A DNA stretch of 64,000 bases from Candidatus Saccharimonadales bacterium (GCA_041906765.1 JAYRIP010000004.1:270-64269), one strand, 5' to 3'. Counted from the stretch's first letter, positions 6,924 through 44,670 are shown. Numbers and translations: made by a program. The notes: generated by a model not told the origin, from the letters alone.

Positions 6924-6995
6924 TTTAGGCTTAATCTATCTCTGTTTGGTAGGATACTACAAACCAAACTAAATACTAAACGACAGAATGTGAAC

Positions 6996-13927: not shown

Positions 13928-15598
13928 ATGAGCGAAATAACAGGTAATGCCCTAATCTCTGCATACGATAAAACCGGCATTGTAGAATTTGCTGATGGTC
14001 TCGCAGAACAGGGCTGGCAAATATACGCTTCTGGAGGAACTGCCAGAAAAATTGGAGAGGCTGGAATCGGGGTTAACGACGTCTCTGAGCTTGTTGGTGG
14101 TGAGGCTATTCTAGGACATCGAGTGGTCACTCTATCGCGGGAAGTTTACGCTGGCCTCTTAGCAGATCAGAGTAAAGCCGAGGACATGGAAGAATTATCA
14201 AGACTTGGTATTCCATTGATTGGTTTAGCGTGTGTCGATATGTATCCTCTTGAAGCAGAAATTGCAAAGCCCGGCGCGACTACAAAAGATGTAATTGAGC
14301 AGACCGATATTGGAGGTCCAACTCTACTTAGAGCAGCAGCGAAGGGGAGACGCATAGTTTTATCTGCTGCCGAGCAACGTCAACCTGTACTGGATTGGCT
14401 CAGTCAAGGCAAACCCGATGAGGAAGCCTTCCTTGAAGAACTGGCAGCGCGGGCAGAATACGAGGTTACACGCTATACCTTAACCCTCGCAAAGTATTTA
14501 GGCGGTACCGGTGTAAGCGGTTCTATAGCGCGACTTAACTCTAGGACAAAATACGGAGAAAATCCTCAGCAGGAAAAAGCAGGATTTTATGCTGACAATC
14601 GAGTAAACACTGATCCCCTCGGTCTTGATCAATTTACTCATGTTCAGGGTATGGAACGAAGCTACGTCAATATGACGGACATTGATCGACTATTACAGAC
14701 TTCAACCCATATTGCCGCAGGTTTTGAGCGTAATTTCGGTGAAGTGCCTCCAATGGCCGTTGGTGTGAAGCACGGTAATGCTTGTGGTGCAGCGGTGGCC
14801 GAGACACTTGTAGAAGCCGTAGGGAAAATGATTGAAGGTGACACGCGAGCTATTTTTGGTGGTGTGGTCATGCTCAACGGTGTCATTGATAAAGACGTGG
14901 CTGAGACGCTTATGAAACACATAATGGAGGGCGAAAGCTCGCGTTTACTTGACGGCGTAGTAGGTTCTGGTGTTACCGACGAGGCACTTGAATTGTTAAG
15001 CCGTAAGAAATTGCGTGTCGTTATTAACCCAGCTTTAGCGAACCTAAATGAAGCTTCATTAGATGCGACACGTCGCGTGAGACCAGTTCGTGGAGGTAAT
15101 CTTGAACAGCCAAACTATTCATTCGTCCAAGATCTATCAGCTGAATATATGCAGCAACACGGCGAACTTATCGAGCAACAGAAACGAGACATGATTCTGG
15201 CTTGGGCAGTTGGCAGCACGAGCAATAGCAATACTATTACGTTAGTAAAAGAGGGTAAACTCCTCGGCAACGGTGTAGGCCAGCAGGATCGCGTTGGGGC
15301 GGGCCAACTAGCTATTACCAGAACGACTATTGAAATGCCTACCATAGCCGACCAAGGAGACCATCTGGTAGTGAGTACGCACCTAAACAAGCAAAAGCTT
15401 GAAGGCGCCGTTGCATATAGTGATAGCTTCTTTCCTTTTCCTGATGGACCAGCGTTATTAGCTGAGGCAGGCGTGAAGGCAATTTTAACCTCTAGTGGAT
15501 CTATCGCTGATGAAAAGGTGATTAAAACCCTCACTGATGCAGGAGTTAGCGTAGTGATGGTACCCGATAAAGTTGGACGCGGCTTTTATTCTCACTAA
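13928..15598 (+). CDS. purH: Bifunctional AICAR transformylase / IMP cyclohydrolase
   Basis: N-terminal MGS-like domain (ALISAYDKTGIVEFA...ASGGTA) followed by an AICARFT domain. SD AAGGAGG upstream. Confidence 0.92.
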   Translation: MSEITGNALISAYDKTGIVEFADGLAEQGWQIYASGGTARKIGEAGIGVNDVSELVGGEAILGHRVVTLSREVYAGLLADQSKAEDMEELSRLGIPLIGLACVDMYPLEAEIAKPGATTKDVIEQTDIGGPTLLRAAAKGRRIVLSAAEQRQPVLDWLSQGKPDEEAFLEELAARAEYEVTRYTLTLAKYLGGTGVSGSIARLNSRTKYGENPQQEKAGFYADNRVNTDPLGLDQFTHVQGMERSYVNMTDIDRLLQTSTHIAAGFERNFGEVPPMAVGVKHGNACGAAVAETLVEAVGKMIEGDTRAIFGGVVMLNGVIDKDVAETLMKHIMEGESSRLLDGVVGSGVTDEALELLSRKKLRVVINPALANLNEASLDATRRVRPVRGGNLEQPNYSFVQDLSAEYMQQHGELIEQQKRDMILAWAVGSTSNSNTITLVKEGKLLGNGVGQQDRVGAGQLAITRTTIEMPTIADQGDHLVVSTHLNKQKLEGAVAYSDSFFPFPDGPALLAEAGVKAILTSSGSIADEKVIKTLTDAGVSVVMVPDKVGRGFYSH

Positions 15599-15726
15599 AA
15601 TAAACAGGCCGAATAATTGACCTGGCACCTGAACCGTCTAAAGATTCGTCTATTCAATCTTGCTTATGCTTGGTAATTGCCGATTGGCAGGGGATAATTA
15701 CTTACATCTAATCGGAGAACCCGTGC

Positions 15727-17175
15727 ATGGCAAACCTTGAATACATGGGTGAAGCAGTCCCACCAGCTAATATTTTGGCAGCACGTTATGCAAGCCCTGA
15801 AATAGTGACCCTCTTTTCTAGCCAAGCGCAAGTTTTCATGGAACGCGGCCTCTGGATAGAAGTGATGCGAAAACAAGCTGAGCTCGGCTTGCCGATACCG
15901 GATGATGCAATTAATGATTACGAGACCATGCAAGATACTGTTGATCTGGCATCAATCCGCCGCCGCGAAGAAGTGACTCATCATGATGTGAAAGCTCGAA
16001 TTGAGGAATTTAACGCTCTGGCAGGTCATCAATATGTGCATACTGGTATGACATCCCGCGATGCAACCGAAAACGTCGAACAAATGCAGATCCTCAAGGG
16101 GCTTGAGATTATTTCTGACCGTACGATCTCGACACTAGGACGGTTTAGTTTGCGAGCTCTACAGTTTACTGAATTGCCCATGACAGGAAGATCGCATAAT
16201 GTTGCCGCACAGACCATTACGCTCGGCAAACGCTTTGCTAATTTTGGTGAAGAACTGCTGAATGGCCATGAAAGGTTACAAACTTTGCGGGATGGCTATC
16301 ACCTACGTGGTATTAAAGGTCCGGTCGGAACACAACAAGATATGCTTGATCTATTCGAAGGCGATGCCACAAAGGTAGCTGAGTTGGAGACCCATATTGC
16401 TGAGGAGTTAGGCTTTGATGGAACGCTTAATAGTGTTGGTCAAATTTATCCTCGGTCCATGGACTTTGATACGGTGACCGCACTCCGGCAACTCGTGTCT
16501 GGACCTTCTAACTTTGCTACCACGCTACGACTGATGGCAGGCCAAGAATTAGCTACAGAAGGATTTAAACCGGGTCAAGTTGGCTCTAGCGCTATGCCCC
16601 ATAAAATGAATGCTGCCAAGTCAGAACGCATCAACAGCTTGAAAGCTGTCTTGAGTGGCCATGTTGTTATGGCATCAGAGCTAGCTGGCAACCAGTGGAA
16701 TGAGGGTGATGTCAGCTGCTCGGCCGCGCGTAGAGTATTTGTGCCGGATTCATTCTTCGCCGCAGATGGCATATTGCAGACCACCATGGCAGTGCTTGAT
16801 GGCTTTGGTGCATATCCGGCAGTCATTGAAAAAGAATTAGAGCGTTATCTACCATTTCTCATCACTACGAAAGCATTGATGGCCGCTGTGAAGGCAGGAG
16901 CAGGTCGTGAGGATGCACATGAAGCCATCAAAGAACATGCAACAAACATTGCGCTAGAAATGCGCGAGGATGGTCTCACAGTGAATAATTTGATCGACCG
17001 TCTTGCCGAGGATCAACGCATGAATGTTTCTAAGGACACACTTGGAAACGCTATGACGCAACCACTAGAACTTACCGGTCTCGCAAAAACACAAATAGCG
17101 ACCTTTGCCGATAATGTTCAGAAACTTGTTAATCAAAAACCTGAACTTGCTGCATATAAACCAAGCGTCGTATAG
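15727..17175 (+). CDS. purB: Adenylosuccinate lyase
   Basis: Fumarate-lyase signature GSSAMPHKMN and the N-terminal RYASPE pattern. 482 aa. Confidence 0.93.
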   Translation: MANLEYMGEAVPPANILAARYASPEIVTLFSSQAQVFMERGLWIEVMRKQAELGLPIPDDAINDYETMQDTVDLASIRRREEVTHHDVKARIEEFNALAGHQYVHTGMTSRDATENVEQMQILKGLEIISDRTISTLGRFSLRALQFTELPMTGRSHNVAAQTITLGKRFANFGEELLNGHERLQTLRDGYHLRGIKGPVGTQQDMLDLFEGDATKVAELETHIAEELGFDGTLNSVGQIYPRSMDFDTVTALRQLVSGPSNFATTLRLMAGQELATEGFKPGQVGSSAMPHKMNAAKSERINSLKAVLSGHVVMASELAGNQWNEGDVSCSAARRVFVPDSFFAADGILQTTMAVLDGFGAYPAVIEKELERYLPFLITTKALMAAVKAGAGREDAHEAIKEHATNIALEMREDGLTVNNLIDRLAEDQRMNVSKDTLGNAMTQPLELTGLAKTQIATFADNVQKLVNQKPELAAYKPSVV

Positions 17176-17184
17176 AAATCTTAT

Positions 17185-17218
17185 AAAAGACTTCTTCGAG
17201 AGTCTTTTTTGTTTTTTT
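17185..17218 (+). terminator. Rho-independent terminator after purB
   Basis: AAAAGACT-tcttcgag-AGTCTTTT followed by TTGTTTTTTT. Confidence 0.7.
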
Positions 17219-17276
17219 ATTATTAGACTGCATAATAGTTTAGCTGGGTCTCAGTCTAAAAATTAATACCGGACGT

Positions 17277-18695
17277 TTGTCGTGGAGTAGGGTGAAAAAG
17301 TACAAGTCTAAGAAATATTCATTAAAACCACCGCAACGAAAAAAATCTCAAGTTGACTACTGGGCAGGGTATATAACTTTAATAGTTATCACTTTGTATA
17401 CTGTTGCTTTTGGTTACTATCGAAGTAATTGGTTTGTATTATCCGTCTTCAGTTTTGCTTTCCTGATAATTATCGTGCCCCTGTGGGTAATTGACGGCCT
17501 TAAAGTATTCCTTGAGTCATTTTCTAGAAGAAGTTATAAATTAGCCAAAGAAAATTTAGATAAAATAACAGTAATTATTGCATGTAAAGACGGGGAGGAT
17601 GTTATCGATGCTACCCTCAAGTCCTTACTAAAGAAATTCCGACCAAAACAAGTCATTCTTGCCTCAAACGGATCAACCGACAACACATGCTATATCGCCC
17701 AGGGATATGGGGTTATTATTTTAGATATTGAACGACCGATTGGGAAAGTGCGTGCCATTAATCGTGCTCTTCAATATGTGGATACCCCCTATGTGCTGCT
17801 GCTTGATGACGACACACTCGTTGGTAATGCGGCTATGCCTACCGGCTTACTGGAGGAAGGTTATGAAGGCGTTGCATTTAGAGTGCTTGTGAAGACGTCA
17901 AATTGGATATCTAAACTACAGATGTACGAATATAGAAAGAGCACCGATCTAGGTAAACGTTATCATAACAATAAGGCTTCCGTGCAAAATATATCGGGAG
18001 CAATCGGACTTTTTGAACTTAAGCAGCTAAAAACACAAATCAGAAGACATAGTGGGGAATTTTCTGGTGAGGATCTGCAAAGAACTCTGCTAATACACCT
18101 TGCGCAAGACGCCAAGGGTGTTGTGCTGACTGATTCAACTGTCTACACGCAGCCACCCACCACCATAAAAACACTATACCAGCAGAGATCATTTGGGTGG
18201 TTTCCCGGTTTATATGCAAACTTTAACAATTATCTAAAGATCTTGACGCGTGACCATATGCCGTTCGCGCTTCGCTTTGATGCCTTCTACAATATTTTTC
18301 TTGTGATGATACTGGATATTCTCCGGGTTTTAAGTCTCCCGATTCTTATTTTTTACCCGTGGTACTTTGTCATCATGTATCTCACTTATTTCTTACTTGA
18401 AGCAATCTCATTTATCAAAAGCAAGTCAAGGGAACCATTTTGGGTTGTATTTATCTATCCGCTGTATGGACTATTCAATTTTTTTACACGAGTAAGTGCA
18501 TTCGCAACATTCGTATATCGAAGACTTGCAGTTAAGCTAGGTCGTCGTAAATTTTTAGATGATTATCGCTCTGTCCCAACGTTACATAAACTTGTAGCAA
18601 TTGGTATTACAACTATGCTTATTAGCAGCTTCCTTGCGCTCAATATATTATTCAATTATGCCAAGCCAATATTGAATATAGGTGTTCCTCTCTAA
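17277..18695 (+). CDS. Membrane-embedded family 2 glycosyltransferase (processive synthase-like)
   Basis: TM helices flank a GT2 core (VIIACKDGEDVI, LLLDDDT, QQRSFGW as a Q-x-x-RW-like motif). TTG start with a GTG alternative at 17292. Confidence 0.8.
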   Translation: MSWSRVKKYKSKKYSLKPPQRKKSQVDYWAGYITLIVITLYTVAFGYYRSNWFVLSVFSFAFLIIIVPLWVIDGLKVFLESFSRRSYKLAKENLDKITVIIACKDGEDVIDATLKSLLKKFRPKQVILASNGSTDNTCYIAQGYGVIILDIERPIGKVRAINRALQYVDTPYVLLLDDDTLVGNAAMPTGLLEEGYEGVAFRVLVKTSNWISKLQMYEYRKSTDLGKRYHNNKASVQNISGAIGLFELKQLKTQIRRHSGEFSGEDLQRTLLIHLAQDAKGVVLTDSTVYTQPPTTIKTLYQQRSFGWFPGLYANFNNYLKILTRDHMPFALRFDAFYNIFLVMILDILRVLSLPILIFYPWYFVIMYLTYFLLEAISFIKSKSREPFWVVFIYPLYGLFNFFTRVSAFATFVYRRLAVKLGRRKFLDDYRSVPTLHKLVAIGITTMLISSFLALNILFNYAKPILNIGVPL

Positions 18696-18765
18696 ATCTA
18701 CAGACAGGAACGAAGAGCTTCGTTTAAAAAAACTGTAGGTCAAGGTACAAAAAGCCTGCTACGAT

Positions 18766-19746
18766 GTGAACATGCAACGTGAATGGGCATCGATTTTTTT
18801 CTATTCACCACTCGAGCCATTGGTATATAACGCTAATCCTTCAATATCTTATTTTGCCAAAAGGGATTTAACCACTACACCTGTCGGCAAAGTCGAAACA
18901 CTATGGCAATTACCAGCCGCCCAAAAGATTGTTCGAAAACAACAAGTAGACGGCAGTTGGTTATACCCGAGCGGAAATAAAAAGATACGGACTACTGAAA
19001 ATTATAATCAATTAGAAACCTTCCGTAACCTTGGCTACTTGGTTGAGATGTTTGGCTTCAACAAAAAAAGTGCTACAGTCCGAAAAGCGGCAGAGTTTTT
19101 ATTCAGTTTTCAAACACCAGAAGGGGACATACGCGGAATACTAGGCAATCAGTATGCGCCATATTACACCGCCGCCATAATGGAGCTCCTTATTAAAGCC
19201 GGGTATAGTGATGATCCCCGGATTACGAAGGGTTTTGATTGGCTAGTCACTATCCGTCAAAACGACGGTGGTTGGGCCATACCGCTGCGGACTAGAGACA
19301 AAAAACTTGATGTTATTACCATGAACACTGAGACAATTAAACCCGATAAAAACAAACCGTCTTCACACATGGTAACGGGTATTGTTCTACGAGCCTACGC
19401 AGCACACCCAAAGTACCGTGAATCAATTGAAGCACATGAAGCAAGCGAGTTATTACTATCAAGTCTATTCAAGCGTGACAACTATCCTGATAGAAGCAGC
19501 CCTGACTATTGGCTGAAGTTTACCTACCCATTTTGGTTTACCGATCTTATCTCGGCGCTTGATAGTTTATCTATACTCGGCACGCCAAAATCTCATCCCA
19601 AAATTAAGCAGGCTATGCAATGGTTTATCAAAGCACAACAAAAAGATGGCACCTGGCACCTTAAAGTTTTGAAAAACCTCAAATATGACAGTGAATCATG
19701 GTTTGCATTATCAATTTGTCGCATTGTAAAACGACTTTATAGCTAA
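18766..19746 (+). CDS. Prenyltransferase/squalene-oxidase-repeat (alpha/alpha toroid) protein, paralog B
   Basis: QQVDGSWLYP, RQNDGGWAIP and QQKDGTWH repeats. Full-length paralog of 9821..10705. Confidence 0.78.
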   Translation: MNMQREWASIFFYSPLEPLVYNANPSISYFAKRDLTTTPVGKVETLWQLPAAQKIVRKQQVDGSWLYPSGNKKIRTTENYNQLETFRNLGYLVEMFGFNKKSATVRKAAEFLFSFQTPEGDIRGILGNQYAPYYTAAIMELLIKAGYSDDPRITKGFDWLVTIRQNDGGWAIPLRTRDKKLDVITMNTETIKPDKNKPSSHMVTGIVLRAYAAHPKYRESIEAHEASELLLSSLFKRDNYPDRSSPDYWLKFTYPFWFTDLISALDSLSILGTPKSHPKIKQAMQWFIKAQQKDGTWHLKVLKNLKYDSESWFALSICRIVKRLYS

Positions 19747-19841
19747 AGCACTCCGCTACTATCCTCAAAAATATCCTAAGAAGTACTTATGCTTTTTACA
19801 GATAACTGATAGAATAACTAAGAAACAAACCTCATAGGGCT

Positions 19842-21509
19842 ATGAACCAACAAAAAAACTCAATAGATTTCTGTGAAAAACTGAGCAGCCTGATAAAAGG
19901 CGAGGTAGATTGTACGGCTGAGACATTGGCAACGTACAGCCATGACGCCAGCTTGTTTGAGGTTATCCCTCGCGGGGTCGTATATCCCAAAGACAGCGAG
20001 GATATCTGCAAGCTGGTTGAATTTGTAAACCAGAACCGTCCACACGATCCCAACTTGTCACTCACAGCCCGCAGCGGCGGTACTGATATGAGCGGTGGCG
20101 CCATCAACGATTCTCTTATCGTTTCCTTTGGGCAGCATTTTACCCATATTGGAACGGTTGAAGGGAACGAAATACGAGTCCAACCCGGTGTGTACTATCA
20201 CGACCTTGAACCAGTTACCCTTGCGAAACACCTGTTACTCCCTTCCTATCCTGCCTCACGAGAGATTTGTATGGTGGGCGGCATGGTAGCGAATAACGCC
20301 GGCGGTGAAAAATCATTGGTGTATGGTAAAACTGACCGCTACGTGCATGAGCTTAAAGTGGTGCTGCGGGATGGAGAAACCCATACTATCCGGCCACTAT
20401 CTGCAAAAGAGCTATCTGCAAAGCTCAAAGAAGACACGCTTGAAGGCTCCATTTACCGGCAAGTCTCCTCACTGATATCCCAAAACCAGGCATTGCTCGC
20501 CCGTTCTCGCCCTAAAACAACCAAAAATTCCACCGGTTATAACCTATGGGATGTGGCTGACAACGAGCAGTTCGATCTAACAAAGCTATTTGTTGGTTCG
20601 CAGGGCACATTGGGAATAGTGACAGAAGTGAAATTCAAATTAATACCCGCCAAACCGCTCTCCGGCATGGTTGTCCTCTTTTTACCACGCCTTGAGGGCT
20701 TGGGGGGCATCATAAACAAATTACTTCCCTTAAAACCCTCTAGTTTGGAATCATTTGACGAACATACGCTCAAGTTTGCTTTCCGCTTTTTCTTGAGTTT
20801 TCGCAAAACTCTGGGGATGAAGCGTTTCTTGCTGCTCGGGCTCAGCTTCATACCGGTACTCAGACATCTACTGCGTTATTTGCCGCGATTACCAAAGCTT
20901 ATCCTCCTTTGTGAGTTTGAAGGAGACAATCAAACCGAAATTGATAATAAAATCACCCATCTGCAGGAAGTCGGACGGCAACTCGGCCTAGAAAGCCAGC
21001 TAGCCGAAAATAAGCGCCAGGAGGAAAAATTCTGGATTATGCGTCGCGAGAGCTTTAACCTATTGCGCAAGAATGTGAAGCACAAACACACCGCACCTTT
21101 TATAGACGACATTATCGTGCCAGCTGAAACGTTAGAAGAATTTTTACCAAAGCTCAGTGAAATACTCGATGGCTACGGTTTGCTTTATACCGTTGCTGGA
21201 CATATGGGCGACGGTAATTTTCATATTATTCCTCTTATGGACCTTACTGATGCCTCTGAACGAGCTAAAATCGCACCCGTGCTCGAAGAAGTTACCAAAC
21301 TGGTCATCAAATACGGAGGCTCATTGTCTGGTGAACATAATGACGGCCTTATCCGGGGCCCATTTTTGTCGCGCATGTACGAACCAAAGATGATAGAGCT
21401 TTTTAAAGAAGTGAAAAGAATCTTCGATCCGGACAATATCTTTAACCCCCACAAAAAAGTTACCGCTACCTGGGAGTACTCGGAGGCGCATATGCGAAAG
21501 AAGTTTTAG
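19842..21509 (+). CDS. FAD-linked oxidase (FAD_binding_4; GlcD/D-lactate dehydrogenase-like)
   Basis: ARSGGTDMSGGAI FAD-binding motif and a C-terminal oxidase domain (GSLSGEHNDGLIR). 555 aa. Confidence 0.85.
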   Translation: MNQQKNSIDFCEKLSSLIKGEVDCTAETLATYSHDASLFEVIPRGVVYPKDSEDICKLVEFVNQNRPHDPNLSLTARSGGTDMSGGAINDSLIVSFGQHFTHIGTVEGNEIRVQPGVYYHDLEPVTLAKHLLLPSYPASREICMVGGMVANNAGGEKSLVYGKTDRYVHELKVVLRDGETHTIRPLSAKELSAKLKEDTLEGSIYRQVSSLISQNQALLARSRPKTTKNSTGYNLWDVADNEQFDLTKLFVGSQGTLGIVTEVKFKLIPAKPLSGMVVLFLPRLEGLGGIINKLLPLKPSSLESFDEHTLKFAFRFFLSFRKTLGMKRFLLLGLSFIPVLRHLLRYLPRLPKLILLCEFEGDNQTEIDNKITHLQEVGRQLGLESQLAENKRQEEKFWIMRRESFNLLRKNVKHKHTAPFIDDIIVPAETLEEFLPKLSEILDGYGLLYTVAGHMGDGNFHIIPLMDLTDASERAKIAPVLEEVTKLVIKYGGSLSGEHNDGLIRGPFLSRMYEPKMIELFKEVKRIFDPDNIFNPHKKVTATWEYSEAHMRKKF

Positions 21510-21549
21510 CTAGGCAAAGTCACAAATCAATAAAATAACGGAGAAAATC

Positions 21550-22089
21550 ATGGCAAAAACAGTCACAAATGCAAAATTACACCGCCTACTGGGTTTATTC
21601 GGTCTGATACTTGGTGTGCTACTGCTCGCCGGTGCTGCCGGCGCTTGGAAGGGGCAGCAATTTGCCAACACACAAGTCAAGAATCAACTAAAACAAGAAC
21701 GAATCTTCTTTCCAGCCAAGGGCACCCCTGCACTTGATCCAAAAACGTTTCCCGGCCTCCAGCAATACGCAGGCCAGCAAGTGGATAATGGCATAAAAGC
21801 CAAAGCCTATGCTGATGAATACATATGGGTTCATATGATGAAATCCTCTAGTGGCAAGACTTATGCAGAAGTAAGCACCGCCGCTATGGCAAATCCGTCC
21901 GACCAAAAACTGGCCGGGCTAAAAAATACTCTCTTTCAGGGAGATATGCTTCGCTCCAGCTTACTTACCGCTTATGCGTTCTCAGTTTTTGGCACTATCG
22001 CCGGTTATGCAGTCATCGGTCTTATCGCTGCAGCCGCAATGGTAATACTTCTATCATTAACTAGCCTGGCACGGTCACGCCAAAATTAA
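21550..22089 (+). CDS. Hypothetical membrane protein (N- and C-terminal TM)
   Basis: 179 aa with TM segments at both ends. Its stop overlaps the ndh-like ATG (TAATG). Confidence 0.6.
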   Translation: MAKTVTNAKLHRLLGLFGLILGVLLLAGAAGAWKGQQFANTQVKNQLKQERIFFPAKGTPALDPKTFPGLQQYAGQQVDNGIKAKAYADEYIWVHMMKSSSGKTYAEVSTAAMANPSDQKLAGLKNTLFQGDMLRSSLLTAYAFSVFGTIAGYAVIGLIAAAAMVILLSLTSLARSRQN

Positions 22090-23331: not shown

Positions 23332-24075
23332 TTGCCTGTGCCCGTTAAAAATAAAAAAACCAAAAAATACTTTGAATTTACCGTGCGCAAGCGGCATTTC
23401 CATGTATTGCTAGACAAAGTTTTGCTGTTCCGTTATAGCCGACGTTTGCACGGACGTTTTTGGGGCATTACTGGTGTTATGGTATTGATTGGCGGTATGT
23501 TCGTCTGTTTCTTAATTAGACCGGACCTCCTTGGAGTTTCTACTGCTCTTAGTATGTTTGGAAATGATGTCCGTACTGCGCCTTACTTTGCTGGCTCTAT
23601 GTTCTTTGCCGCCTACGGATTGTGGCGATGGCGTAATTATTTGCGGCGTACCCTAAAACGGCCGCACCCACTGTTAGATCTGATCAACCTCACTATAATC
23701 GGTTTATACTTAGTGGCTCTTATGCCGGTTGGCTGGAAACCACTATCTTATCATATACACATTATCGGTATGACCTTGGCTGGCTGCAGCATGGCCGCCG
23801 CAGTGATTATCGACGGAGTACTGAGCAAGTCACGACAAACTATGCGAGGCCGCAAATGGCGATTGATCAGAGCATTATCATTTGTACTGATATTGAGCGG
23901 CGGGTGGTTCACGCTCGGTTCAACTGATTCGCTGCATTGGTATAATGTTGCCTTTTTGGGCGAAGCCATGATGTTGACTGGTTATACGCTGTGGGTTTGC
24001 GTAAAAACCTACCAGGGAGAAGGAAACCGCTCTGCCTTATCAAGAATGCTGAAAAATGTTGTCCTGATAGACTAG
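23332..24075 (+). CDS. Hypothetical polytopic membrane protein (start uncertain)
   Basis: 247-aa ORF with about 6 hydrophobic segments. Non-ATG start in the track. No family recognised. Confidence 0.55.
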   Translation: MPVPVKNKKTKKYFEFTVRKRHFHVLLDKVLLFRYSRRLHGRFWGITGVMVLIGGMFVCFLIRPDLLGVSTALSMFGNDVRTAPYFAGSMFFAAYGLWRWRNYLRRTLKRPHPLLDLINLTIIGLYLVALMPVGWKPLSYHIHIIGMTLAGCSMAAAVIIDGVLSKSRQTMRGRKWRLIRALSFVLILSGGWFTLGSTDSLHWYNVAFLGEAMMLTGYTLWVCVKTYQGEGNRSALSRMLKNVVLID

Positions 24076-24077: not shown

Positions 24078-24105
24078 AGTTAATGTGAGATATCTCACAT
24101 TAACT
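24078..24105. promoter_or_regulatory. Perfect 28-bp palindrome containing a consensus CRP-type site TGTGA-N6-TCACA
   Basis: AGTTAATGTGAGAT|ATCTCACATTAACT. The 22-bp core TAATGTGAGATATCTCACATTA matches the CRP consensus half-sites exactly. Centre at 24091.5. Confidence 0.75.
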
Positions 24106-24120
24106 TCTCTGCCAAGCGGG

Positions 24121-24126
24121 TATAAT
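24121..24126 (+). promoter_or_regulatory. -10 box TATAAT of the 24152 operon (no separate -35; class II geometry)
   Basis: TATAAT at 24121-24126. A TSS predicted near 24133 places the palindrome centre at about -41.5. Confidence 0.5.
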
Positions 24127-24151
24127 GGCCTCACAATAACGTGAGAGGGCT

Positions 24152-25081
24152 ATGATTGTGACAAAACTCAACCGGTTCTATTTGTTGTACGCTTTGATGG
24201 CACTACTTTATATATGTCTTACCTTGTTCACTCCTACTGATGCAGCAGTACTCACGAAATATCATCTCTCACCCACCCAGGCTAAAACATTAAGTCTAGC
24301 TGTTGCAATACCTATTATGGCCATTTGGTTCATCGCTTTTTATGGATTCGTGCATTTGCGGGCCTATGTCCAGGTCATTAGGAAAACCGAGGATGGAAAA
24401 CACTTAAAAACACTTTCCCGGGGGATTTTCTGGCTAGCAATTTCTCTGCCTGTTAATAGCATAGTCGCTTCATATATGAGCTATCTGGCCTACCGTCACC
24501 CTTCCGCCATACCAGCCACAATTATTCTCACTAATTACGTTCGTTTATTGTTGGCAATTGTGTCCTTGTACTGGATCTTTCAGGGAGCCAAGGGGCTAGC
24601 CTCAATGCTTCCAGGCAATAGCGAAGTAATGCATCGGGATGACGCTCGAACCGGTTTTATTGTCTTGGGTCTGGTGTTTGCCTATATTACCTTGAACAAC
24701 CCGGCTAGACGCAGCCCTGTTGGCACCCCTCCAAGAGCAGCCTATTATCTGCCGGACATACTGATTATCCTCACCATCATTATCCCTTACCTATGGGTAT
24801 GGTTTCGTGGTCTCATTGCAGCATTCTACTTGCACTTCTACAAACAAAAAGTGAAGGGAATGTTGTATAAAAGCGGCCTCGGCTATATTGCCAACGGTCT
24901 TATTTTTATTATCGCCAGCTCTATCGCGGTACAATTTGTAGTTTCGATTTCTTCACTTTGGCGGGACGCCACCTTGCAGTTCATACTTATTATTCTGTAC
25001 CTATTGATTGTCCTTATCGGACTGGGATTTTTCCTTGTAGCAGTTGGAGCAAAAAGACTGAAGAAAATAGAGGAAGTATAG
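24152..25081 (+). CDS. Hypothetical polytopic membrane protein
   Basis: 309 aa with about 8 TM segments. SD GAGAGGG upstream. First gene of an apparent operon with 25086 and 25362. Confidence 0.65.
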   Translation: MIVTKLNRFYLLYALMALLYICLTLFTPTDAAVLTKYHLSPTQAKTLSLAVAIPIMAIWFIAFYGFVHLRAYVQVIRKTEDGKHLKTLSRGIFWLAISLPVNSIVASYMSYLAYRHPSAIPATIILTNYVRLLLAIVSLYWIFQGAKGLASMLPGNSEVMHRDDARTGFIVLGLVFAYITLNNPARRSPVGTPPRAAYYLPDILIILTIIIPYLWVWFRGLIAAFYLHFYKQKVKGMLYKSGLGYIANGLIFIIASSIAVQFVVSISSLWRDATLQFILIILYLLIVLIGLGFFLVAVGAKRLKKIEEV

Positions 25082-25085
25082 GCAG

Positions 25086-25343
25086 ATGCCTACGCAGTCA
25101 TTATACGAACGAGTTGTATCTATAACCGAGGATTATATCGGTCCGGCAGCGCGGCGCTTTATTGATCGGCATATCCAAAACCATTTGCAAATCAAGCCAG
25201 ACCAACTCGACATCCCACACTTGAAAAAACTTTCGCGCTGGACTAATACTGCCCTCGGTTATCTCACGAATGACTCGGCAATCGTCGATGAATATGCCGC
25301 CCGACTTTCAGCACTTGATCAAACTGAACATAGTGATAAGTAG
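25086..25343 (+). CDS. Small hypothetical protein (85 aa)
   Basis: Tightly spaced between the membrane protein (4-nt gap) and the kinase (18-nt gap). No family recognised. Confidence 0.5.
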   Translation: MPTQSLYERVVSITEDYIGPAARRFIDRHIQNHLQIKPDQLDIPHLKKLSRWTNTALGYLTNDSAIVDEYAARLSALDQTEHSDK

Positions 25344-25361
25344 GCAAAATCAGGTACTACT

Positions 25362-26477
25362 ATGCCAAGCTCTACGACACAAACCTCCCTCAATCACCAT
25401 TTACGCGCCATTCGCCTAGAACGTGCCAAAGCCGCAGCGATATTTTCGAGCATAGGCCAAGCTGCTCTGGTCACTGATAGCAAGGGTTACATTTCGCACA
25501 TTAATCAAGTTGCTTTGGATATATTGGGGTATAAGAAAAGCGAGCTTCTCGGTAAGTGGTTTCCTGAAACAATAAAAGTAGTTGATAAGACCAATCAGCC
25601 GGTGGATTTGATTGACCGGCCCGTTAGCCAGGCATTGATGAGCGGCAAGCCAGTTACCGCCAACTGCTTTTATCGCATCCGAGACGGTTCAATGATTCCG
25701 ATCGCGGTCACTGTCTCTCCGGTTATGCTTGGCACTGAGCCAATCGGCGCAGTCGAAGTATTTAGAGATATATCAAAAGAGTATGAGATTGATAGAATGA
25801 AAAGCGAATTTATCTCGCTTGCCTCGCACCAGTTACGAACGCCTCTCTCGGCCATTAGTATGTACACCCACATGCTACTCGATGGTTATGAGGGGGAACT
25901 GCAGTCTGGTCAACGGGAAATGATGGAGGTAGTACAAGCGTCCGTCCTGCGCATGAATGAACTTATTGATACACTATTAAACATTTCACGGATTGAATCA
26001 GGAAAGATGCACGTGAATCTCAAGGAAGTAGACGTCATACAACTTGTGGAACGGCTTTTGGATGAAATGCGGCCCCTGGGCAAAGAACGACGAATTAGCA
26101 TACGCTTCCGCTGCCCCCAATCGTGCAAAGTCATGTCCGATCCTTTGCTGCTTTGGGAAATATTTGCCAACCTCATAACCAACGCATTGAAATATTCCCA
26201 TGGTGACAGTTATATCGTCGTGAGTTTATCTAACACAAAACGAGGCTTGTCTTACACGGTGAGCGACAAAGGTATTGGCATCCCCTCCAAGTTGCAGGAA
26301 CTCATATTTACAAAGTTTTTCAGAGCACCAAACGCAGTGTACCAAGAAACAGAAGGTACCGGACTCGGCCTTTATATGGTCAAGCAAATTGCCGACGCGT
26401 TGGGCGGAAAAGTTGGTTTTAAAAGCCAGCCGCAAAAGGGGAGTACCTTTTATTTTCGACTGCCATTAAAAACCTAA
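25362..26477 (+). CDS. Cytoplasmic PAS-domain sensor histidine kinase
   Basis: PAS region followed by the H-box SHQLRTPLSAI. HATPase motifs are NALKYS, DKGIGIP and GTGLGLYMV. Confidence 0.9.
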   Translation: MPSSTTQTSLNHHLRAIRLERAKAAAIFSSIGQAALVTDSKGYISHINQVALDILGYKKSELLGKWFPETIKVVDKTNQPVDLIDRPVSQALMSGKPVTANCFYRIRDGSMIPIAVTVSPVMLGTEPIGAVEVFRDISKEYEIDRMKSEFISLASHQLRTPLSAISMYTHMLLDGYEGELQSGQREMMEVVQASVLRMNELIDTLLNISRIESGKMHVNLKEVDVIQLVERLLDEMRPLGKERRISIRFRCPQSCKVMSDPLLLWEIFANLITNALKYSHGDSYIVVSLSNTKRGLSYTVSDKGIGIPSKLQELIFTKFFRAPNAVYQETEGTGLGLYMVKQIADALGGKVGFKSQPQKGSTFYFRLPLKT

Positions 26478-26508
26478 ACTTTATGAAAGTTAAAAATCTT
26501 ACTGATTA

Positions 26509-26532
26509 TTCACGCAAATTTCACGCTATAAT
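26509..26532 (+). promoter_or_regulatory. Direct repeats TTCACGC x2 at 11-bp spacing abutting a TATAAT box
   Basis: TTCACGC at 26509-26515 and 26520-26526, with TATAAT at 26527-26532. Lies upstream of the receiver gene. Confidence 0.45.
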
Positions 26533-26606
26533 AGCACTTAACGCCGATAGGGCTAGTTGCGGCGCATGAATCTAAAACAATATCTTTCCACCCAACAGGA
26601 GTGACT

Positions 26607-26972
26607 ATGGCAAAAATACTGGTAGTAGAAGATGACAGCATTCTAAGTAAAGCTTATAAGCTGATACTAAAGAACAAGGGCCACGATGTACTACTGGCAG
26701 GCAACGGTCGAGAGGCACTGAAGTTAGCTGACAAAGAAAAGCCTGAGATAATCCTGCTCGACTTACTGATGCCTATCCTCGACGGTATAGGCTTTCTTGA
26801 AAAATACCAGCCTGATCAGCCGGACAAAGCCAAAGTAATTGTGCTAAGTAATCTTGGGGACGAGAAAAAGGTCAACCGTGCAATGGAGCTGGGCGCTTAC
26901 AAGTACATCGTTAAGGCACACGCCACACCAATGCAGTTATCATTATTGGTGGGCCGTATCCTACAAGATTAG
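26607..26972 (+). CDS. Single-domain response regulator (CheY-like receiver only)
   Basis: KILVVEDD...ILLDLLMP...VLSNLGD...KYIVK receiver motifs. AGGAG sits 5 nt before ATG 26607 (track start is GTG 26601). No output domain. Confidence 0.9.
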   Translation: MAKILVVEDDSILSKAYKLILKNKGHDVLLAGNGREALKLADKEKPEIILLDLLMPILDGIGFLEKYQPDQPDKAKVIVLSNLGDEKKVNRAMELGAYKYIVKAHATPMQLSLLVGRILQD

Positions 26973-27013: not shown

Positions 27014-27673
27014 TCAGGAAGCTATATCCAAAAATTCACTTTCACCCATTTTTTTAGTTAGTCGCGACTTATCAATCACGTAGTTTTGTTTCGAAAACGA
27101 CACGATGCCTTCTTTGCGGAGTTTATTAAGTTCAATGCCCGTTGTCTCCCGGGTTAATCCGACCAGATCGGCAAATTCCTGCTGAGTAAATTTCATGGTG
27201 ATGAGTACTTTGTCACCGCGCATTTGTTTGCCAAAACGCATACTCAGGTAGTATAAGGTGTGTAATATCTTATCAGACGCGCGAGAGTATTGCAGGGCGT
27301 TAAGGCGTACCATTTGACCAACATAGGCGTCAATATAATGAAAAAGTAAAGTTTGTTGTAGAGATTTATTCGAGGCTAGTAACTTCTGAAAATCGCGCTT
27401 AGGAATACAATAAAGGACGGTGTCTGACGCGGCTTCAAAGAAAAACATGGAACTTTGCGCCCGATCAAATGTCCAGGCGGTAGGAAAAATCTCGTATTGC
27501 AGATTATATCCCAACACATTCATCTCACCATTGCCACTCAAGTTATACATACGAACCAAACCCTCTTTAATTACATACACTGCAGAAGGAACTTCTCCTT
27601 GGTATATAATTATTTCCCCTTTGGCAAATTTCCGGGTAGGGTAGGCAGTGAGTAACAACTGGAATTGCTCCAC
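27014..27673 (-). CDS. Crp/Fnr family transcriptional regulator (paralog 1)
   Basis: cNMP-binding-like beta-roll (GEIIIYQGEVPSAVYVIKEGLVRMY) and a C-terminal HTH (FADLVGLTRETTGIELNKL). GTG 27673 is chosen as the start by alignment with paralog 2. The track ORF extends to 27736. Confidence 0.85.
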   Translation of the reverse strand: MEQFQLLLTAYPTRKFAKGEIIIYQGEVPSAVYVIKEGLVRMYNLSGNGEMNVLGYNLQYEIFPTAWTFDRAQSSMFFFEAASDTVLYCIPKRDFQKLLASNKSLQQTLLFHYIDAYVGQMVRLNALQYSRASDKILHTLYYLSMRFGKQMRGDKVLITMKFTQQEFADLVGLTRETTGIELNKLRKEGIVSFSKQNYVIDKSRLTKKMGESEFLDIAS

Positions 27674-29332: not shown

Positions 29333-29497
29333 ACTTCCTCCGCCCTCATATTATGTCTACTGCTTCAAGCATAATAGTAAGGTGAGTAAGCTGCAACAAT
29401 TTATACACAGCCATATATAAAATATGTGAAAAATCTCGCTGTTTTTGACTCATCCCCCGGTTATGCTTAAGGGGCATTAAGTGGAGGGGATGCATTA

Positions 29498-29656
29498 ATG
29501 AAGTACACAAAAAAACAACAGCTATTGAATCAACCAACCCGTTTATCTGAACTGACTTTTGACGAGATGATGGAAGATATTAGCAGTGACCTTGACGCAA
29601 AAATAGAAAGATTGCAAAATCGACGGTGGCGCAAAATACGTAATCAGCAATTGTAG
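29498..29656 (+). CDS. Small hypothetical ORF (52 aa)
   Basis: Hand translation gives MKYTKKQQLLNQPTRLSELTFDEMMEDISSDLDAKIERLQNRRWRKIRNQQL*. SD GGAGGGG ends 8 nt before the ATG. Below the track cutoff. Confidence 0.4.
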   Translation: MKYTKKQQLLNQPTRLSELTFDEMMEDISSDLDAKIERLQNRRWRKIRNQQL

Positions 29657-29691: not shown

Positions 29692-30372
29692 CTACACTTT
29701 TAGCTTTTTGCTTTGAAGCAAGCGACTGAGATCATAATTGTCATCAAGTAATTGATGCAGTTTGTTTACGTCTACCATATAATGACGACGCCGATGGCTA
29801 AGTATGCCTTTTTGTTCCAGCTTTTTTAGTTCGAGACCTGTAGTCTCGCGGGTCAGCCCTATAAAGTTCGCAAGATCTTGTTGAGTAAGAGGCAATGTAA
29901 TACGCACCATACTGCCTCTTATGTGCTTTCCGAAGCGGAGTATAAAGAAGTGCAAGGTATGTATGAGCTTTTGCGAGGCCTTGGACTGTTCAAGCGCATA
30001 AACGCGAACTTCGAAATTAAGATACTTTGTCACAATGTCGTGAAATTGTTGATATAAAACCTGATTGTCAGTACGCAGGTACTCTAGATAGTCTTCACGG
30101 CTAACAACAAAAAGTTCACAGGCAGAGAATGCTTCATAAAAAAATTGGGCACGTTTGACCATACCAAACACCCAGCCAGTGGGGAACATCTCATATTCAA
30201 GGTCAAACGAAATAGGCTTTTCAAGCCCGTCATTCGTGAGATTATATATTTTGACAATCCCTTTTTTAACAAAGTAAGCTGCTTGCGGCACTTCACCTTC
30301 GCACAAAATCAGCTCGCCTTTAGTAAAAGCTTTTACACGGTAACTTGAAAGGAACTGCCGTAACTCTTTCAT
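29692..30372 (-). CDS. Crp/Fnr family transcriptional regulator (paralog 2)
   Basis: GELILCEGEVPQAAYFVKKGIVKIY beta-roll and HTH LANFIGLTRETTGLELKKL. Start at ATG 30372 (MKELRQF). The track ORF extends to 30480. Confidence 0.85.
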   Translation of the reverse strand: MKELRQFLSSYRVKAFTKGELILCEGEVPQAAYFVKKGIVKIYNLTNDGLEKPISFDLEYEMFPTGWVFGMVKRAQFFYEAFSACELFVVSREDYLEYLRTDNQVLYQQFHDIVTKYLNFEVRVYALEQSKASQKLIHTLHFFILRFGKHIRGSMVRITLPLTQQDLANFIGLTRETTGLELKKLEQKGILSHRRRHYMVDVNKLHQLLDDNYDLSRLLQSKKLKV

Positions 30373-30506
30373 GACGAACCGCCTTGAGCCTTTTGTTACT
30401 CTAAACACAATTATACCCCATAAAGTGATGAAGTCACGATTTGTTAGCTGGACAACTCTAACATATCCCCTGGAAGTCAACCATACTAAGGCCGTACAAT
30501 ATAACT

Positions 30507-44654: not shown

Positions 44655-44670
44655 CAAACATCCCTGTAAA

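What the first reader, a model, noticed from the sequence alone, without database searches (positions are those of the whole stretch)
24078..24133. Perfect 28-bp CRP-consensus palindrome in class II position upstream of a membrane-protein/PAS-kinase operon
Seen in the sequence:
- AGTTAATGTGAGATATCTCACATTAACT is a perfect palindrome. Its core is TGTGA-N6-TCACA with AT-rich flanks, an exact match to both CRP half-sites.
- It starts 3 bp after the stop of the upstream gene.
- TATAAT at 24121-24126 has no -35 partner. The palindrome centre (24091.5) lies about 41.5 bp upstream of a TSS predicted 7 nt after the -10. That is the geometry of class II CRP/FNR-activated promoters.
- Two Crp/Fnr paralogs are encoded 3-6 kb downstream. 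Both have recognition helices reading TRETTG, retaining the Arg-Glu pair that contacts the G:C pairs of TGTGA in CRP.

Inference: one or both paralogs directly activate the 24152-26477 operon (polytopic membrane protein, 85-aa protein, PAS histidine kinase). That would link a small-molecule-sensing Crp to a two-component pathway. A perfect natural consensus site is unusual.
Basis: partly seen in the sequence, partly recalled or inferred. Interest (0 to 1): 0.6.

Follow-up and report, generated by a model that had tools for sequence, protein, structure and literature searches.

The report
Crp-type activator site before kinase operon
A perfectly symmetrical 28-base sequence in an uncultured Saccharibacteria (CPR) genome is most likely the docking site from which a Crp/Fnr-type regulator switches on a membrane-protein/sensor-kinase operon. 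The same promoter design recurs in dozens of related genomes, which gives a first reconstructed regulatory circuit for this poorly known group.

Summary
AGTTAATGTGAGATATCTCACATTAACT (24078-24105) is a perfect 28-bp palindrome and the only exact TGTGA-N6-TCACA in the window. TATAAT lies 21 nt downstream and there is no -35.

The window is from a Candidatus Saccharimonadales bacterium.
- In about 30 related genomes a Crp2 ortholog sits beside a conserved ~50-aa gene ("small52").
- The small52 promoter carries a TGTGA-N6-TCRCA site, with a TANNNT -10 exactly 21-22 nt further on. This held in 23 of 23 promoters examined, and none had a -35.
- A matrix built only from foreign small52 sites picks out two loci in the 64 kb window: the window's own small52 promoter (score 24.5) and this palindrome (20.9). 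The next best score is 14.4.
- The closest relative keeps the site, degraded in a non-compensatory way, and keeps TATAAT at the same distance. A hairpin or terminator reading is therefore unlikely.
- The module memb309-p85-PAS kinase-receiver-Crp is conserved. Most of its promoters carry a Crp-type site.

Caveats: there is no TSS or binding data, the canonical cAMP contacts are absent, and it is unresolved which paralog binds.

Verdict: a real class II Crp/Fnr-type promoter. It is a new member of a known kind, in a phylum where such regulators were reported as absent.

The parts
24078..24105 (.). Perfect 28-bp palindrome. Proposed operator for a Crp/Fnr-family dimer (core TGTGA-GATATC-TCACA at 24084-24099).
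   Evidence: PWM score 20.9 with a matrix built from 19 foreign sites, about 0.005 expected per window. The syntenic site in L004/L010 is TGAGAGATTATTCACT.
24121..24126 (+). -10 hexamer TATAAT, 21 nt after the core. No -35 partner.
   Evidence: The 21/22-nt spacing is seen in 23 of 23 family promoters. Best -35 match is 2 of 6.
24133..24133 (+). Predicted transcription start (an A, 7 nt after the -10). Inferred only. It would put the site centre at -41.5.
   Evidence: Sequence. A purine occupies this offset in 19 of 23 family promoters. No TSS data.
24152..25081 (+). First gene of the operon ('memb309'): an eight-helix membrane protein with no Pfam/NCBIfam match and no solved-structure relative.
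   Evidence: AF2 model pLDDT 90.6. Best PDB Foldseek E-value 0.09. 20 homologs, all Saccharibacteria-type.
25086..25343 (+). 85-aa protein ('p85'), always found after memb309.
25362..26477 (+). Cytoplasmic PAS-HisKA-HATPase histidine kinase.
26601..26972 (+). Receiver-only response regulator and last gene of the module. The true start is probably the ATG at 26607, as the gene callers chose.
27014..27673 (-). Crp1, a Crp/Fnr paralog convergent with the response regulator. Its position is conserved with the module. Candidate regulator.
   Evidence: A convergent Crp follows the receiver gene in 10 metagenome loci.
29692..30372 (-). Crp2, the widely conserved ortholog (402 clusters). Candidate regulator. 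The longer ORF reaching 30480 is probably over-extended.
   Evidence: AF2 model pLDDT 90.9 with TM about 0.8 to NtcA/MtbCRP/CRP.
29425..29440 (+). Second site of the same family in the window (TGTGAAAAATCTCGCT). Operator of the small52 promoter.
   Evidence: PWM score 24.5.
29462..29467 (+). -10 hexamer TATGCT of the small52 promoter, 21 nt after the core.
29498..29656 (+). small52, a 52-aa conserved protein (MKK..PTR..DLSFDDLYDD..W.LKAERLQARRWRKLK). Core target of the regulon.

Best explanation
The palindrome is the DNA-binding site of a dimeric Crp/Fnr-family regulator encoded nearby (Crp1, Crp2 or both; their recognition helices are the same). It overlaps the position where a -35 element would lie, in a promoter that has only a -10 (TATAAT). 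The bound dimer is centred about 41.5 bp upstream of the start point and recruits or activates RNA polymerase, as class II CRP, FNR and NtcA promoters do. This turns on the operon memb309-p85-PAS histidine kinase, and probably the receiver gene as well.

Shown:
- the sequence itself;
- its membership of a motif family conserved next to the Crp genes;
- the fixed 21-22 nt distance to a -10;
- the absence of a -35;
- the linkage of the operon with Crp genes;
- the Crp fold and the invariant Arg-Glu of the recognition helix.

Inferred:
- binding;
- the direction of regulation (activation);
- the start point;
- which paralog acts.

Unknown: the signal.
For: Motif family.
- In 22 loci the ~50-aa gene beside Crp2 has a TGTGA-N6-TCACA-like site about 53-87 bp before its start. 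16 of these sites have 2 or fewer core mismatches.
- An unseeded search for palindromic dyads in 20 foreign upstream regions ranks TGTGA with gap 6 first: 9 regions, against at most 4 in shuffles.

Geometry.
- TANNNT lies 21 nt (18 cases) or 22 nt (5 cases) after the core in 23 of 23 promoters. At any other offset from 10 to 33 it occurs 2 times or fewer.
- None of the 23 promoters matches TTGACA at 4 or more of 6 positions. The -10 hexamers of small52 promoters are weak (mean over all 23 promoters 4.2 of 6), which implies dependence on an activator.

Out-of-sample test.
- A matrix built from 19 foreign sites scores the palindrome 20.9 and the window's small52 site 24.5. The next best in the window is 14.4.
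- The expected number of hits at 20.9 or above is 0.005 per window.
- In about 600 kb of related loci there were 15 non-training hits at 17 or above, against about 1 expected.

Synteny.
- L004 and L010 keep TGAGA-N6-TCACT followed by 21 nt and TATAAT at the same place.
- Their RNA hairpin is lost: -7.8 kcal/mol, z -1.3, against -15.6 kcal/mol, z -4.65 in the window.

Target conservation.
- 10 of 13 memb309 operons in Crp-anchored loci lie behind such a site: 3 directly and 7 through an upstream small52 gene.
- In an independent metagenome set, 17 of 23 memb309 promoters have TGTNA-N6-TNACA with a -10 hexamer 19-24 nt downstream. The control rate is 10%.

Regulator.
- PF00027 plus PF13545.
- The AF2 model matches NtcA, MtbCRP, GlxR and CRP with TM 0.76-0.82.
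- G-L-T-R-E-T is invariant in 58 homologs.
- In CAP, R180 contacts G2 and E181 contacts the partner of G4 in TGTGA (PMC10187061).
- A Crp gene is convergent with the receiver gene in every locus but one that extends far enough.
Against: - There is no experimental TSS, no binding data and no expression data.
- The palindrome lacks the promoter-proximal 'CAG' that small52 sites conserve. Its symmetry extends 6 bp beyond each half-site, which protein contacts alone do not explain.
- The nearest relative's site has only 8 of 10 core matches. Its sister genome L010 keeps the site although the operon is gone, so retention is not proof of function.
- In the unbiased metagenome set the small52-trained matrix finds almost nothing before memb309. 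The sites there are a different flavour (TGTAA/TGTTA), so the regulators may have diverged in specificity.
- CAP R185 is replaced by Ile/Leu.
- Relaxed TGTGA-N6-TCACA matches are not enriched in the window.
Confidence: 0.75

Rival explanations
1. The same protein-binding site acts as a repressor operator. The Crp-family dimer occludes the promoter instead of activating it.
For: The site overlaps the RNA polymerase footprint. TATAAT is a perfect -10 and could support some activator-independent initiation. Crp/Fnr proteins can repress (PMC10187061).
Against: - The distance to the -10 is fixed at 21-22 nt in 23 of 23 promoters. This is typical of face-of-helix contacts with polymerase and is not needed for occlusion.
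- All 23 promoters lack a -35, and most have poor -10 hexamers such as TACCAT, TATGCT and TACCCT. They would be nearly silent without help.
Confidence: 0.1
2. The palindrome works as an RNA hairpin: a terminator or 3'-end stabiliser of the upstream gene 23332-24075. Its resemblance to a CRP site is incidental.
For: It starts 2 nt after the stop codon. It folds into a 12-bp stem of -15.6 kcal/mol, z -4.65. The perfect symmetry extends beyond the protein-contact core.
Against: - The stem is A+T-rich and is followed by UUCUCUGCC, not a U-tract. The terminator scan does not call it.
- The ortholog in L004 has two non-compensatory core changes and no significant fold, yet keeps both half-sites and the -10 spacing.
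- Sister sites of the family, such as 29425-29440, cannot form hairpins.
- There is no Rfam match.
- A secondary hairpin role in this strain is not excluded.
Confidence: 0.05
3. It is a site for a site-specific recombinase (dif/Xer-like, with 11-bp arms and a 6-bp centre) or another DNA-level element.
For: The 11+6+11 architecture totals 28 bp. Recalled from memory, 7 of 11 positions match the E. coli XerD arm. Cumulative GC skew peaks some 5 kb away, at about 18-20 kb. A 3.6-kb block is present or absent right next to the site between L004 and L010.
Against: - The inner ATAA/TTAT positions that I recall as the best-conserved part of dif are absent.
- The syntenic sequence differs at about 10 of 28 positions in the sister species. 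dif sites are normally highly conserved.
- The skew profile is noisy and is not a clean switch.
- The indel junction shows no repeated site.
- This reading does not explain the match to the Crp-linked motif or the -10 spacing.
Confidence: 0.02
4. It is a chance or mutational palindrome with no function, for example a quasi-palindrome made perfect by template switching.
For: The right flank TAACTTCTCT is shared with L004, whereas the left flank is not. This fits copying of one arm onto the other. The extended symmetry is otherwise unexplained.
Against: The expected number of such palindromes is 3.4e-4 per window, and of matrix hits at this score 0.005. It sits at the exact class II distance from a perfect -10, before an operon that carries such sites in other genomes. 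Template switching could explain the perfection of the palindrome but not the existence of the site.
Confidence: 0.05

Closest known systems
Class II CRP(CAP)-dependent promoters of E. coli (site centred near -41.5, e.g. galP1-type)
   Same: - TGTGA-N6-TCACA palindrome overlapping the -35 position.
- No -35 hexamer.
- 21 nt from the core to the -10, which is 22 bp to the second -10 base. This is cited as the class II hallmark in PMC10187061.
- The regulator has a cNMP-type beta-barrel plus a winged HTH, with the Arg-Glu pair.
   Different: - The regulator is only about 20% identical to CRP and scores 46 bits against a cut-off of 266 for the CRP model.
- It lacks the cAMP contacts G71/E72/R82/S83, having a conserved FPxGW instead. 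It also lacks R185.
- The host is a CPR bacterium.
- Natural E. coli sites deviate from the perfect palindrome (PMC10187061), whereas this one does not.
NtcA-activated promoters of cyanobacteria (GTA-N8-TAC centred about -41.5, -10 of form TAN3T)
   Same: - The promoter grammar is the same: a Crp-family palindrome replaces the -35 and a TAN3T -10 follows about 22 nt downstream (PMC3898017 abstract).
- NtcA structures are the best structural matches to the Crp2 model, TM 0.80-0.82.
- Many memb309 promoters in metagenome loci read TGTAA-N6-TTACA, which contains GTA-N8-TAC.
   Different: - By my recollection the NtcA recognition helix lacks the Glu (Arg-Val-Thr); this was not checked here. These proteins keep Arg-Glu.
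- The window's own sites are of the TGTGA type.
- No 2-oxoglutarate or PipX link is known here.
- The score against the NtcA model is 38 bits, with a cut-off of 245.
Actinobacterial CRP/GlxR (M. tuberculosis Rv3676, C. glutamicum GlxR)
   Same: Structures are close to the Crp2 model, TM about 0.8. From memory, their helix is RETVNK without Arg185, and they still bind TGTGA-N6-TCACA. That would show that Arg-Glu is sufficient for this motif.
   Different: They bind cAMP. The proteins here lack the phosphate-binding cassette. The regulons are different.
S. meliloti Clr
   Same: It is a Crp-family protein whose sites keep GT...AC while the fourth position of the half-site is not conserved, because the CAP E181/R185 contacts are altered (PMC10187061). 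The same relaxed fourth position (G/A/T) is seen across the Saccharibacteria sites.
   Different: Clr uses a different helix (RPKVNR), has conserved C6/G11 in its sites, and binds cAMP/cGMP.

Membership tests
Crp/Fnr superfamily transcription factor (the proposed regulator) | N-terminal cNMP-binding-type beta-barrel plus C-terminal Crp-type winged helix-turn-helix | tested here: met
   PF00027 and PF13545 (plus PF00325) hit both paralogs. All of the best 120 of 402 homolog clusters carry both domains.
Crp/Fnr superfamily transcription factor (the proposed regulator) | Overall fold matching solved family members, including DNA-bound forms | tested here: met
   AF2 model pLDDT 90.9. Foldseek hits to NtcA, MtbCRP, GlxR and CRP have E-values of 1e-15 to 1e-13, TM 0.72-0.82 and rmsd 2-3 A.
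CRP-type (TGTGA-reading) recognition helix | Arg180 and Glu181 equivalents at the start of the recognition helix | tested here: met
   TRETTG is present in both paralogs. R175, E176 and T177 are invariant in 58 homologs. The contact assignment is from PMC10187061.
CRP-type (TGTGA-reading) recognition helix | Arg185 equivalent (contacts G4 of TGTGA) | tested here: not met
   Ile/Leu/Val/Thr occupies that position. This is consistent with the variable fourth base in the family's sites.
cAMP receptor protein proper (CRP/CAP equivalog) | cAMP phosphate-binding cassette residues (G71, E72, R82, S83) | tested here: not met
   These positions align to P/T/A/Q within a conserved FPxGW motif. The alignment is at about 21% identity, so the register may be off by up to one residue, but no conserved Arg is present. 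The NCBIfam CRP model scores 46 bits against a cut-off of 266.
FNR proper | N-terminal Cys cluster for the [4Fe-4S] centre | tested here: not met
   There is no N-terminal Cys cluster in either paralog. The FNR model scores 36-38 bits against a cut-off of 228.
Class II activator-dependent promoter | Activator site overlapping the -35 region at a fixed distance from the -10 (centre near -41.5) | tested here: met
   The core is 21 nt from TATAAT. The same 21/22 nt is seen in 23 of 23 family promoters. This holds relative to the -10 only.
Class II activator-dependent promoter | No functional -35 hexamer | tested here: met
   The best match to TTGACA is 2 of 6 here and 3 of 6 or fewer in all 23 promoters.
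Class II activator-dependent promoter | Mapped transcription start, and activator-dependent transcription | not testable with these tools
   No transcript data are available. This needs 5'-RACE or dRNA-seq and in vitro transcription.
Intrinsic (Rho-independent) terminator | G+C-rich stem followed by a U-tract | tested here: not met
   The stem is A+T-rich and the tail is UUCUCUGCC. The scan does not call it. The hairpin is not conserved in L004.
dif/Xer recombination site | Highly conserved sequence among related genomes, independent of neighbouring genes | tested here: not met
   The syntenic sequence in L004/L010 differs at about 10 of 28 positions. Uniqueness in the genome could not be tested because only the window is available.

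The most novel reading that the evidence does not exclude
The palindrome is the strongest operator of a Saccharibacteria-wide circuit with three parts:
- a Crp/Fnr subfamily with a non-cNMP pocket (conserved FPxGW);
- a ~50-aa acidic/basic protein (small52) that is the regulon's universal target and sits next to the crp gene;
- an eight-helix membrane protein/p85/PAS-kinase/receiver module.

On this reading small52 would be a feedback partner of the Crp, either a co-activator in the manner of PipX for NtcA or an anti-activator in the manner of SpfP for CAP AR3. The circuit would sense a host- or oxygen-related signal in these episymbionts. It would be the first reconstructed transcription-factor regulon in the CPR.
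Probability: 0.15. Interest if true: 0.7.

Novelty: new member of a known kind. Interest (0 to 1): 0.45.

Why it matters
Gene regulation in CPR/Patescibacteria is almost uncharted. A 2025 survey of about 6,000 genomes reported full-length CRP/FNR proteins as notably absent from the CPR clade (PMC12531629). An earlier Saccharibacteria genome paper only listed 'five FNR family regulators' as possible O2 sensors (PMC6031116).

Here a large family (402 clusters) is tied to a defined DNA motif, a defined promoter architecture and a small conserved target set. This gives concrete, cheap experiments: binding assays, ligand screens and reporters in a crp-deleted host. These could address what these tiny episymbiotic bacteria sense.

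It also shows that the class II CRP/FNR/NtcA promoter grammar extends to this deep bacterial lineage.

Tried and rejected
- Relaxed TGTGA-N6-TCACA matches in the window gave no enrichment (20 found, 26.9 expected). A regulon cannot be called from the window alone.
- The search for related loci with broad memb309 alignments failed because no conserved stretch was found. A close-pair alignment found nothing in metagenomes. The Crp alignment and a C-terminal memb309 pattern worked.
- Autoregulation of Crp2 is not conserved. Only 6 of 34 upstream regions score 11 or above, and one of those is a shared divergent site.
- The small52-trained matrix gave almost no hits on the metagenome memb309 promoters. 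A relaxed pattern was needed. I therefore do not claim one uniform motif for all memb309 promoters.
- Rfam found nothing in 22-31 kb at E-value 1 or below.
- Pfam and NCBIfam found nothing for memb309, p85, small52, memb189 or up247.
- The memb309 model has no significant solved-structure relative. The GPCR/rhodopsin hits at E-values of 0.09 or worse and TM 0.43 or below are generic helical-bundle matches.
- Literature searches for Crp in Saccharibacteria returned only C-reactive-protein noise or nothing.
- The cluster look-up gave no names or accessions for the window's proteins.
- A leader hairpin (CCUCAC/GUGAGAGG) was dropped. The predicted start lies inside its 5' arm and it is absent in L004.

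Full report
OBSERVATION

The sequence at 24078-24105 is AGTTAATGTGAGATATCTCACATTAACT. It is a perfect palindrome of two 14-nt arms with no spacer.
- Its first base is the third after the TAG stop of ORF 23332-24075.
- The 16-bp core TGTGA-GATATC-TCACA (24084-24099) is the only exact TGTGA-N6-TCACA in the 64 kb window.
- With the window's composition, about 0.07 exact cores and 3.4e-4 perfect 14-pair palindromes are expected.
- Relaxed matches are not enriched: 20 found against 26.9 expected.
- TATAAT lies at 24121-24126, 21 nt after the core. No hexamer at spacer 16-18 matches TTGACA at more than 2 of 6 positions.
- An A lies 7 nt after the -10, at 24133.
- Three contigs from other sequencing runs are 100% identical across the region, so the palindrome is not an assembly artefact.

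CONTEXT

Homolog names place the window in Candidatus Saccharimonadales (Saccharibacteria/TM7, CPR).

Downstream of the site, on the plus strand:
- a 309-aa membrane protein, 'memb309'. It has no family match. Its AF2 model has pLDDT 90.6 and eight long helices, with no significant solved-structure relative;
- an 85-aa protein, 'p85';
- a soluble PAS-HisKA-HATPase kinase;
- after a 123-bp gap, a receiver-only response regulator.

Further downstream:
- Crp1 (27014-27673, minus strand), convergent with the receiver gene;
- a DAGK-family kinase;
- a 189-aa membrane protein, 'memb189';
- a 52-aa ORF, 'small52' (29498-29656, plus strand);
- Crp2 (29692-30372, minus strand);
- a UvrD/PDDEXK helicase.

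WHAT THE REGULATORS ARE

Both paralogs carry PF00027 plus PF13545.
- They are a divergent branch. Curated CRP, FNR, FixK, NtcA and FnrL models score 32-48 bits against cut-offs of 228-300. The best solved relatives by sequence are DNR, CprK and NtcA, at E-values of 1e-11 to 1e-7.
- An AF2 model of Crp2 (pLDDT 90.9) superposes on NtcA, M. tuberculosis CRP, GlxR and E. coli CRP with TM 0.72-0.82.
- The recognition helix reads G-L-T-R-E-T-T-G-(I/L)-E-L. G-L-T-R-E-T and the following E-L are invariant in 58 homologs of 49-84% identity.
- In CAP, R180 and R185 contact G2 and G4 of TGTGA, and E181 contacts the partner of G4 (PMC10187061). Here Arg and Glu are kept and the R185 position is hydrophobic.
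- The cAMP contacts G71, E72, R82 and S83 are not conserved. A family-specific FPxGW motif takes their place. There is no FNR-type Cys cluster.
- A loop G-x-E-K-P that aligns with the CAP AR3 loop (residues 52-58, including E58) is invariant. This is suggestive only, given about 21% identity.
- The family is large: 402 clusters at E-value 1e-10 or below, and all of the best 120 have both domains.

COMPARATIVE TEST OF THE SITE

A scan of species-representative genomes with a Crp alignment returned 51 loci. About 30 are Saccharibacteria with a Crp2 ortholog. Mapping the window's proteins onto them shows a conserved neighbourhood: helicase, memb189, Crp2, small52 and often memb309-p85-kinase-receiver.

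The small52 promoter:
- The small52 gene has a TGTGA-N6-TCACA-like site 53-87 bp before its start in essentially every genome. 16 of 22 sites have 2 or fewer core mismatches, and three are perfect.
- An unseeded enumeration of palindromic dyads ranks TGTGA with gap 6 first: 9 of 20 regions, against a shuffle maximum of 4.
- Anchoring on the site reveals a TANNNT hexamer exactly 21 nt (18 cases) or 22 nt (5 cases) after the core in 23 of 23 promoters. At any other offset from 10 to 33 it occurs 2 times or fewer.
- None of the 23 promoters has a -35 (4 or more of 6 matches), and the small52 -10 hexamers are mediocre (mean over all 23 promoters 4.2 of 6).
- This is the grammar of class II CRP/FNR promoters and of NtcA promoters (GTA-N8-TAC centred at about -41.5; PMC3898017). 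A review cites 22 bp from site to the second -10 base as a class II hallmark (PMC10187061).

Matrix test:
- A matrix built from 19 foreign small52 sites, with no window sequence, gives two outliers in the window. They are 29422-29443 (score 24.5, the window's own small52 promoter) and the palindrome (20.9 on both strands).
- The next best score is 14.4. The training range is 17.5-25.3.
- The analytic expectation for a score of 20.9 or above is 0.005 per window.
- Across about 600 kb of loci the matrix finds 15 non-training hits at 17 or above, against about 1 expected. Most have a -10 at the right offset and a small52-like ORF downstream.

IS THE OPERON A CONSERVED TARGET?

In the Crp-anchored set, 10 of 13 non-redundant memb309 operons lie behind such a site.
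- Three do so directly: the window, L004, and L031 with a perfect TGTGAAATTTTTCACA.
- Seven do so through a small52 gene placed immediately upstream.

The nearest relative (L004, 68% identity in memb309) has TGAGA-GATTAT-TCACT followed by 21 nt and TATAAT at the syntenic place.
- The two core changes are on different arms and are not compensatory.
- The predicted hairpin collapses: -7.8 kcal/mol, z -1.3, against -15.6 kcal/mol, z -4.65 in the window.
- The half-site Gs and the spacing survive.
- This argues for a protein-DNA site and against an RNA structure. The element is also not called as a terminator and matches no Rfam family.

An independent, memb309-anchored metagenome set (38 loci) gives three results.
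- The module memb309-p85-kinase-receiver followed by a convergent Crp gene appears in the ten loci that extend far enough to show it.
- The small52-trained matrix finds almost nothing before memb309 there.
- A relaxed TGTNA-N6-TNACA pattern with a -10 hexamer 19-24 nt downstream is present in 17 of 23 promoters, against 10% in controls. With 1 or fewer mismatches it is present in 14 of 23, against 2.6%.

These metagenome sites are mostly TGTAA/TGTTA...TTACA/TAACA, which is the NtcA-like GTA-N8-TAC flavour. The Crps adjacent to these modules keep Arg-Glu but differ in the next residues (TRETTSTE, TRETAATE, TRETTAVE). A variable fourth base fits the missing R185 contact, and the Clr case in PMC10187061 is comparable.

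Crp control of this operon therefore looks ancestral, but specificity may have drifted. The window's site is of the Crp2/small52 (TGTGA) type.

MECHANISM

Best reading, confidence about 0.75: a Crp1 and/or Crp2 dimer binds 24081-24102. It activates a -35-less promoter (-10 at 24121-24126, start near 24133) by class II contacts. This drives memb309-p85-kinase, and probably the receiver gene.

Unresolved points:
- Which paralog acts. Crp1 is the one genetically tied to the module. Crp2 is the one tied to TGTGA-type small52 sites. Their recognition helices are identical at the base-contacting positions, so cross-talk is likely.
- The signal is unknown and is unlikely to be cAMP bound in the canonical way.

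Rivals:
- Repression from the same site (0.10). The fixed spacing and the activator-dependent look of the promoters disfavour it.
- A hairpin or terminator function only (0.05).
- A functionless mutational palindrome (0.05).
- A dif-like recombination site (0.02).

The extension of perfect symmetry 6 bp beyond each half-site is not explained by the Crp model. The right flank TAACTTCTCT is shared with L004 while the left flank is not. This would fit a template-switch event that copied one arm onto the other. That is a speculation.

COMPARISON WITH THE KNOWN, AND NOVELTY

Functionally this is a textbook class II Crp/Fnr/NtcA-type promoter.
- The regulator belongs to the superfamily by domains, fold and Arg-Glu.
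- It does not belong to CRP proper, FNR proper or NtcA, because defining features were tested and not met.

I found no paper describing Crp sites or regulons in Saccharibacteria.
- One genome paper lists 'five FNR family regulators' as possible O2 sensors (PMC6031116).
- A 2025 survey states that full-length CRP/FNR proteins are notably absent from the CPR clade (PMC12531629). The 402 clusters found here contradict that statement, presumably because of that study's genome sampling.

I rate the finding as a new member of a known kind, with interest 0.45. The element itself is ordinary. The conserved circuit around it (an orphan-ligand Crp, a ~50-aa universal target, and an eight-helix membrane protein with a PAS kinase) is a useful and testable entry point into CPR regulation.

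Noticed in passing
window 29425-29440 (site), 29462-29467 (-10), 29498-29656 (gene): A second site of the same family (TGTGAAAAATCTCGCT, then 21 nt, then TATGCT) drives a 52-aa ORF, 'small52'. This ORF belongs to a conserved, unannotated family of 46-74-aa proteins (MKK..PTR..DLSFDDLYDD..W.LKAERLQARRWRKLK). It lies beside Crp2 orthologs in about 30 genomes and is represented by 32 clusters at 50% identity. It appears to be the universal target of the regulon. Its function is unknown.
   Followed up: yes
L010 12640-12720 (minus strand) compared with L004 7920-8000 and 11540-11560: L010 is a sister genome of L004 that lacks the whole 3.6-kb block memb309-p85-kinase-receiver-Crp1. It keeps the Crp-type site and TATAAT right after the up247 gene, and that promoter now faces the DAGK gene. 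The junction is 'aaatctcga|gtcttttt' with no flanking repeats.
   Followed up: partly
window 6894-6926 and 44668-44700: Two inverted repeats, the first exact and the second with one mismatch in the extended arm, carry the core TTAGCACTC-N9-GAG(T/C)GCTAA and resemble CIRCE (HrcA operator), recognised from memory. Each lies just upstream of an Hsp20-family gene (6396-6827 minus strand, 44775-45224 plus strand).
   Followed up: partly
window 26488-26503 and 26527-26532: The 123-bp gap between the kinase and the receiver gene holds a weak Crp-like dyad (AGTTAAAAATCTTACT, matrix score about 10). A TATAAT follows 23 nt later, which is off the 21-22 rule. In distant relatives (L039 at 1756, L040 at 17000) the receiver gene has a strong TGTGATATAT(A/T)TCACA site. 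This could be an internal promoter.
   Followed up: partly
window 30394-30409 with 30410-30415 (minus strand): A 2-mismatch dyad (TGTGTTTAGAGTAACA on the minus strand) directly follows a TATAAT upstream of Crp2. L004/L010 have TGTGCGACAACTCACA in the same intergenic region. Such sites are not conserved across Crp2 orthologs: only 6 of 34 score 11 or above.
   Followed up: yes
L007 16808-16849: Two tandem sites, TGTGCAATATATCACA (1 mismatch) and TGTGAAATCAATCACA (perfect), lie upstream of a 432-aa gene with no Pfam match in a related genome. This could be another regulon member.
   Followed up: no
window 24152-25081: memb309 gives a confident eight-helix AF2 model (pLDDT 90.6) with no significant match to any solved structure. 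Only generic GPCR/rhodopsin-like bundle hits appear, at E-values of 0.09 or worse. It always precedes p85 and a soluble PAS kinase, so it may be the membrane sensor of that kinase.
   Followed up: partly
window 12000-22000: Cumulative GC skew reaches a local maximum at about 18-20 kb, with skew of +0.085 at 12-18 kb and negative values afterwards. The profile is noisy, so it is unclear whether this marks a replication terminus or reflects gene orientation.
   Followed up: no
window 23332-24075 and related loci L013, L026, L033, L035, L036: The 247-aa membrane protein upstream of the palindrome ('up247', no family match) is also part of the conserved neighbourhood. In several genomes it directly precedes the small52 promoter, just as it precedes the memb309 promoter here. 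This suggests that the two promoters are homologous.
   Followed up: no
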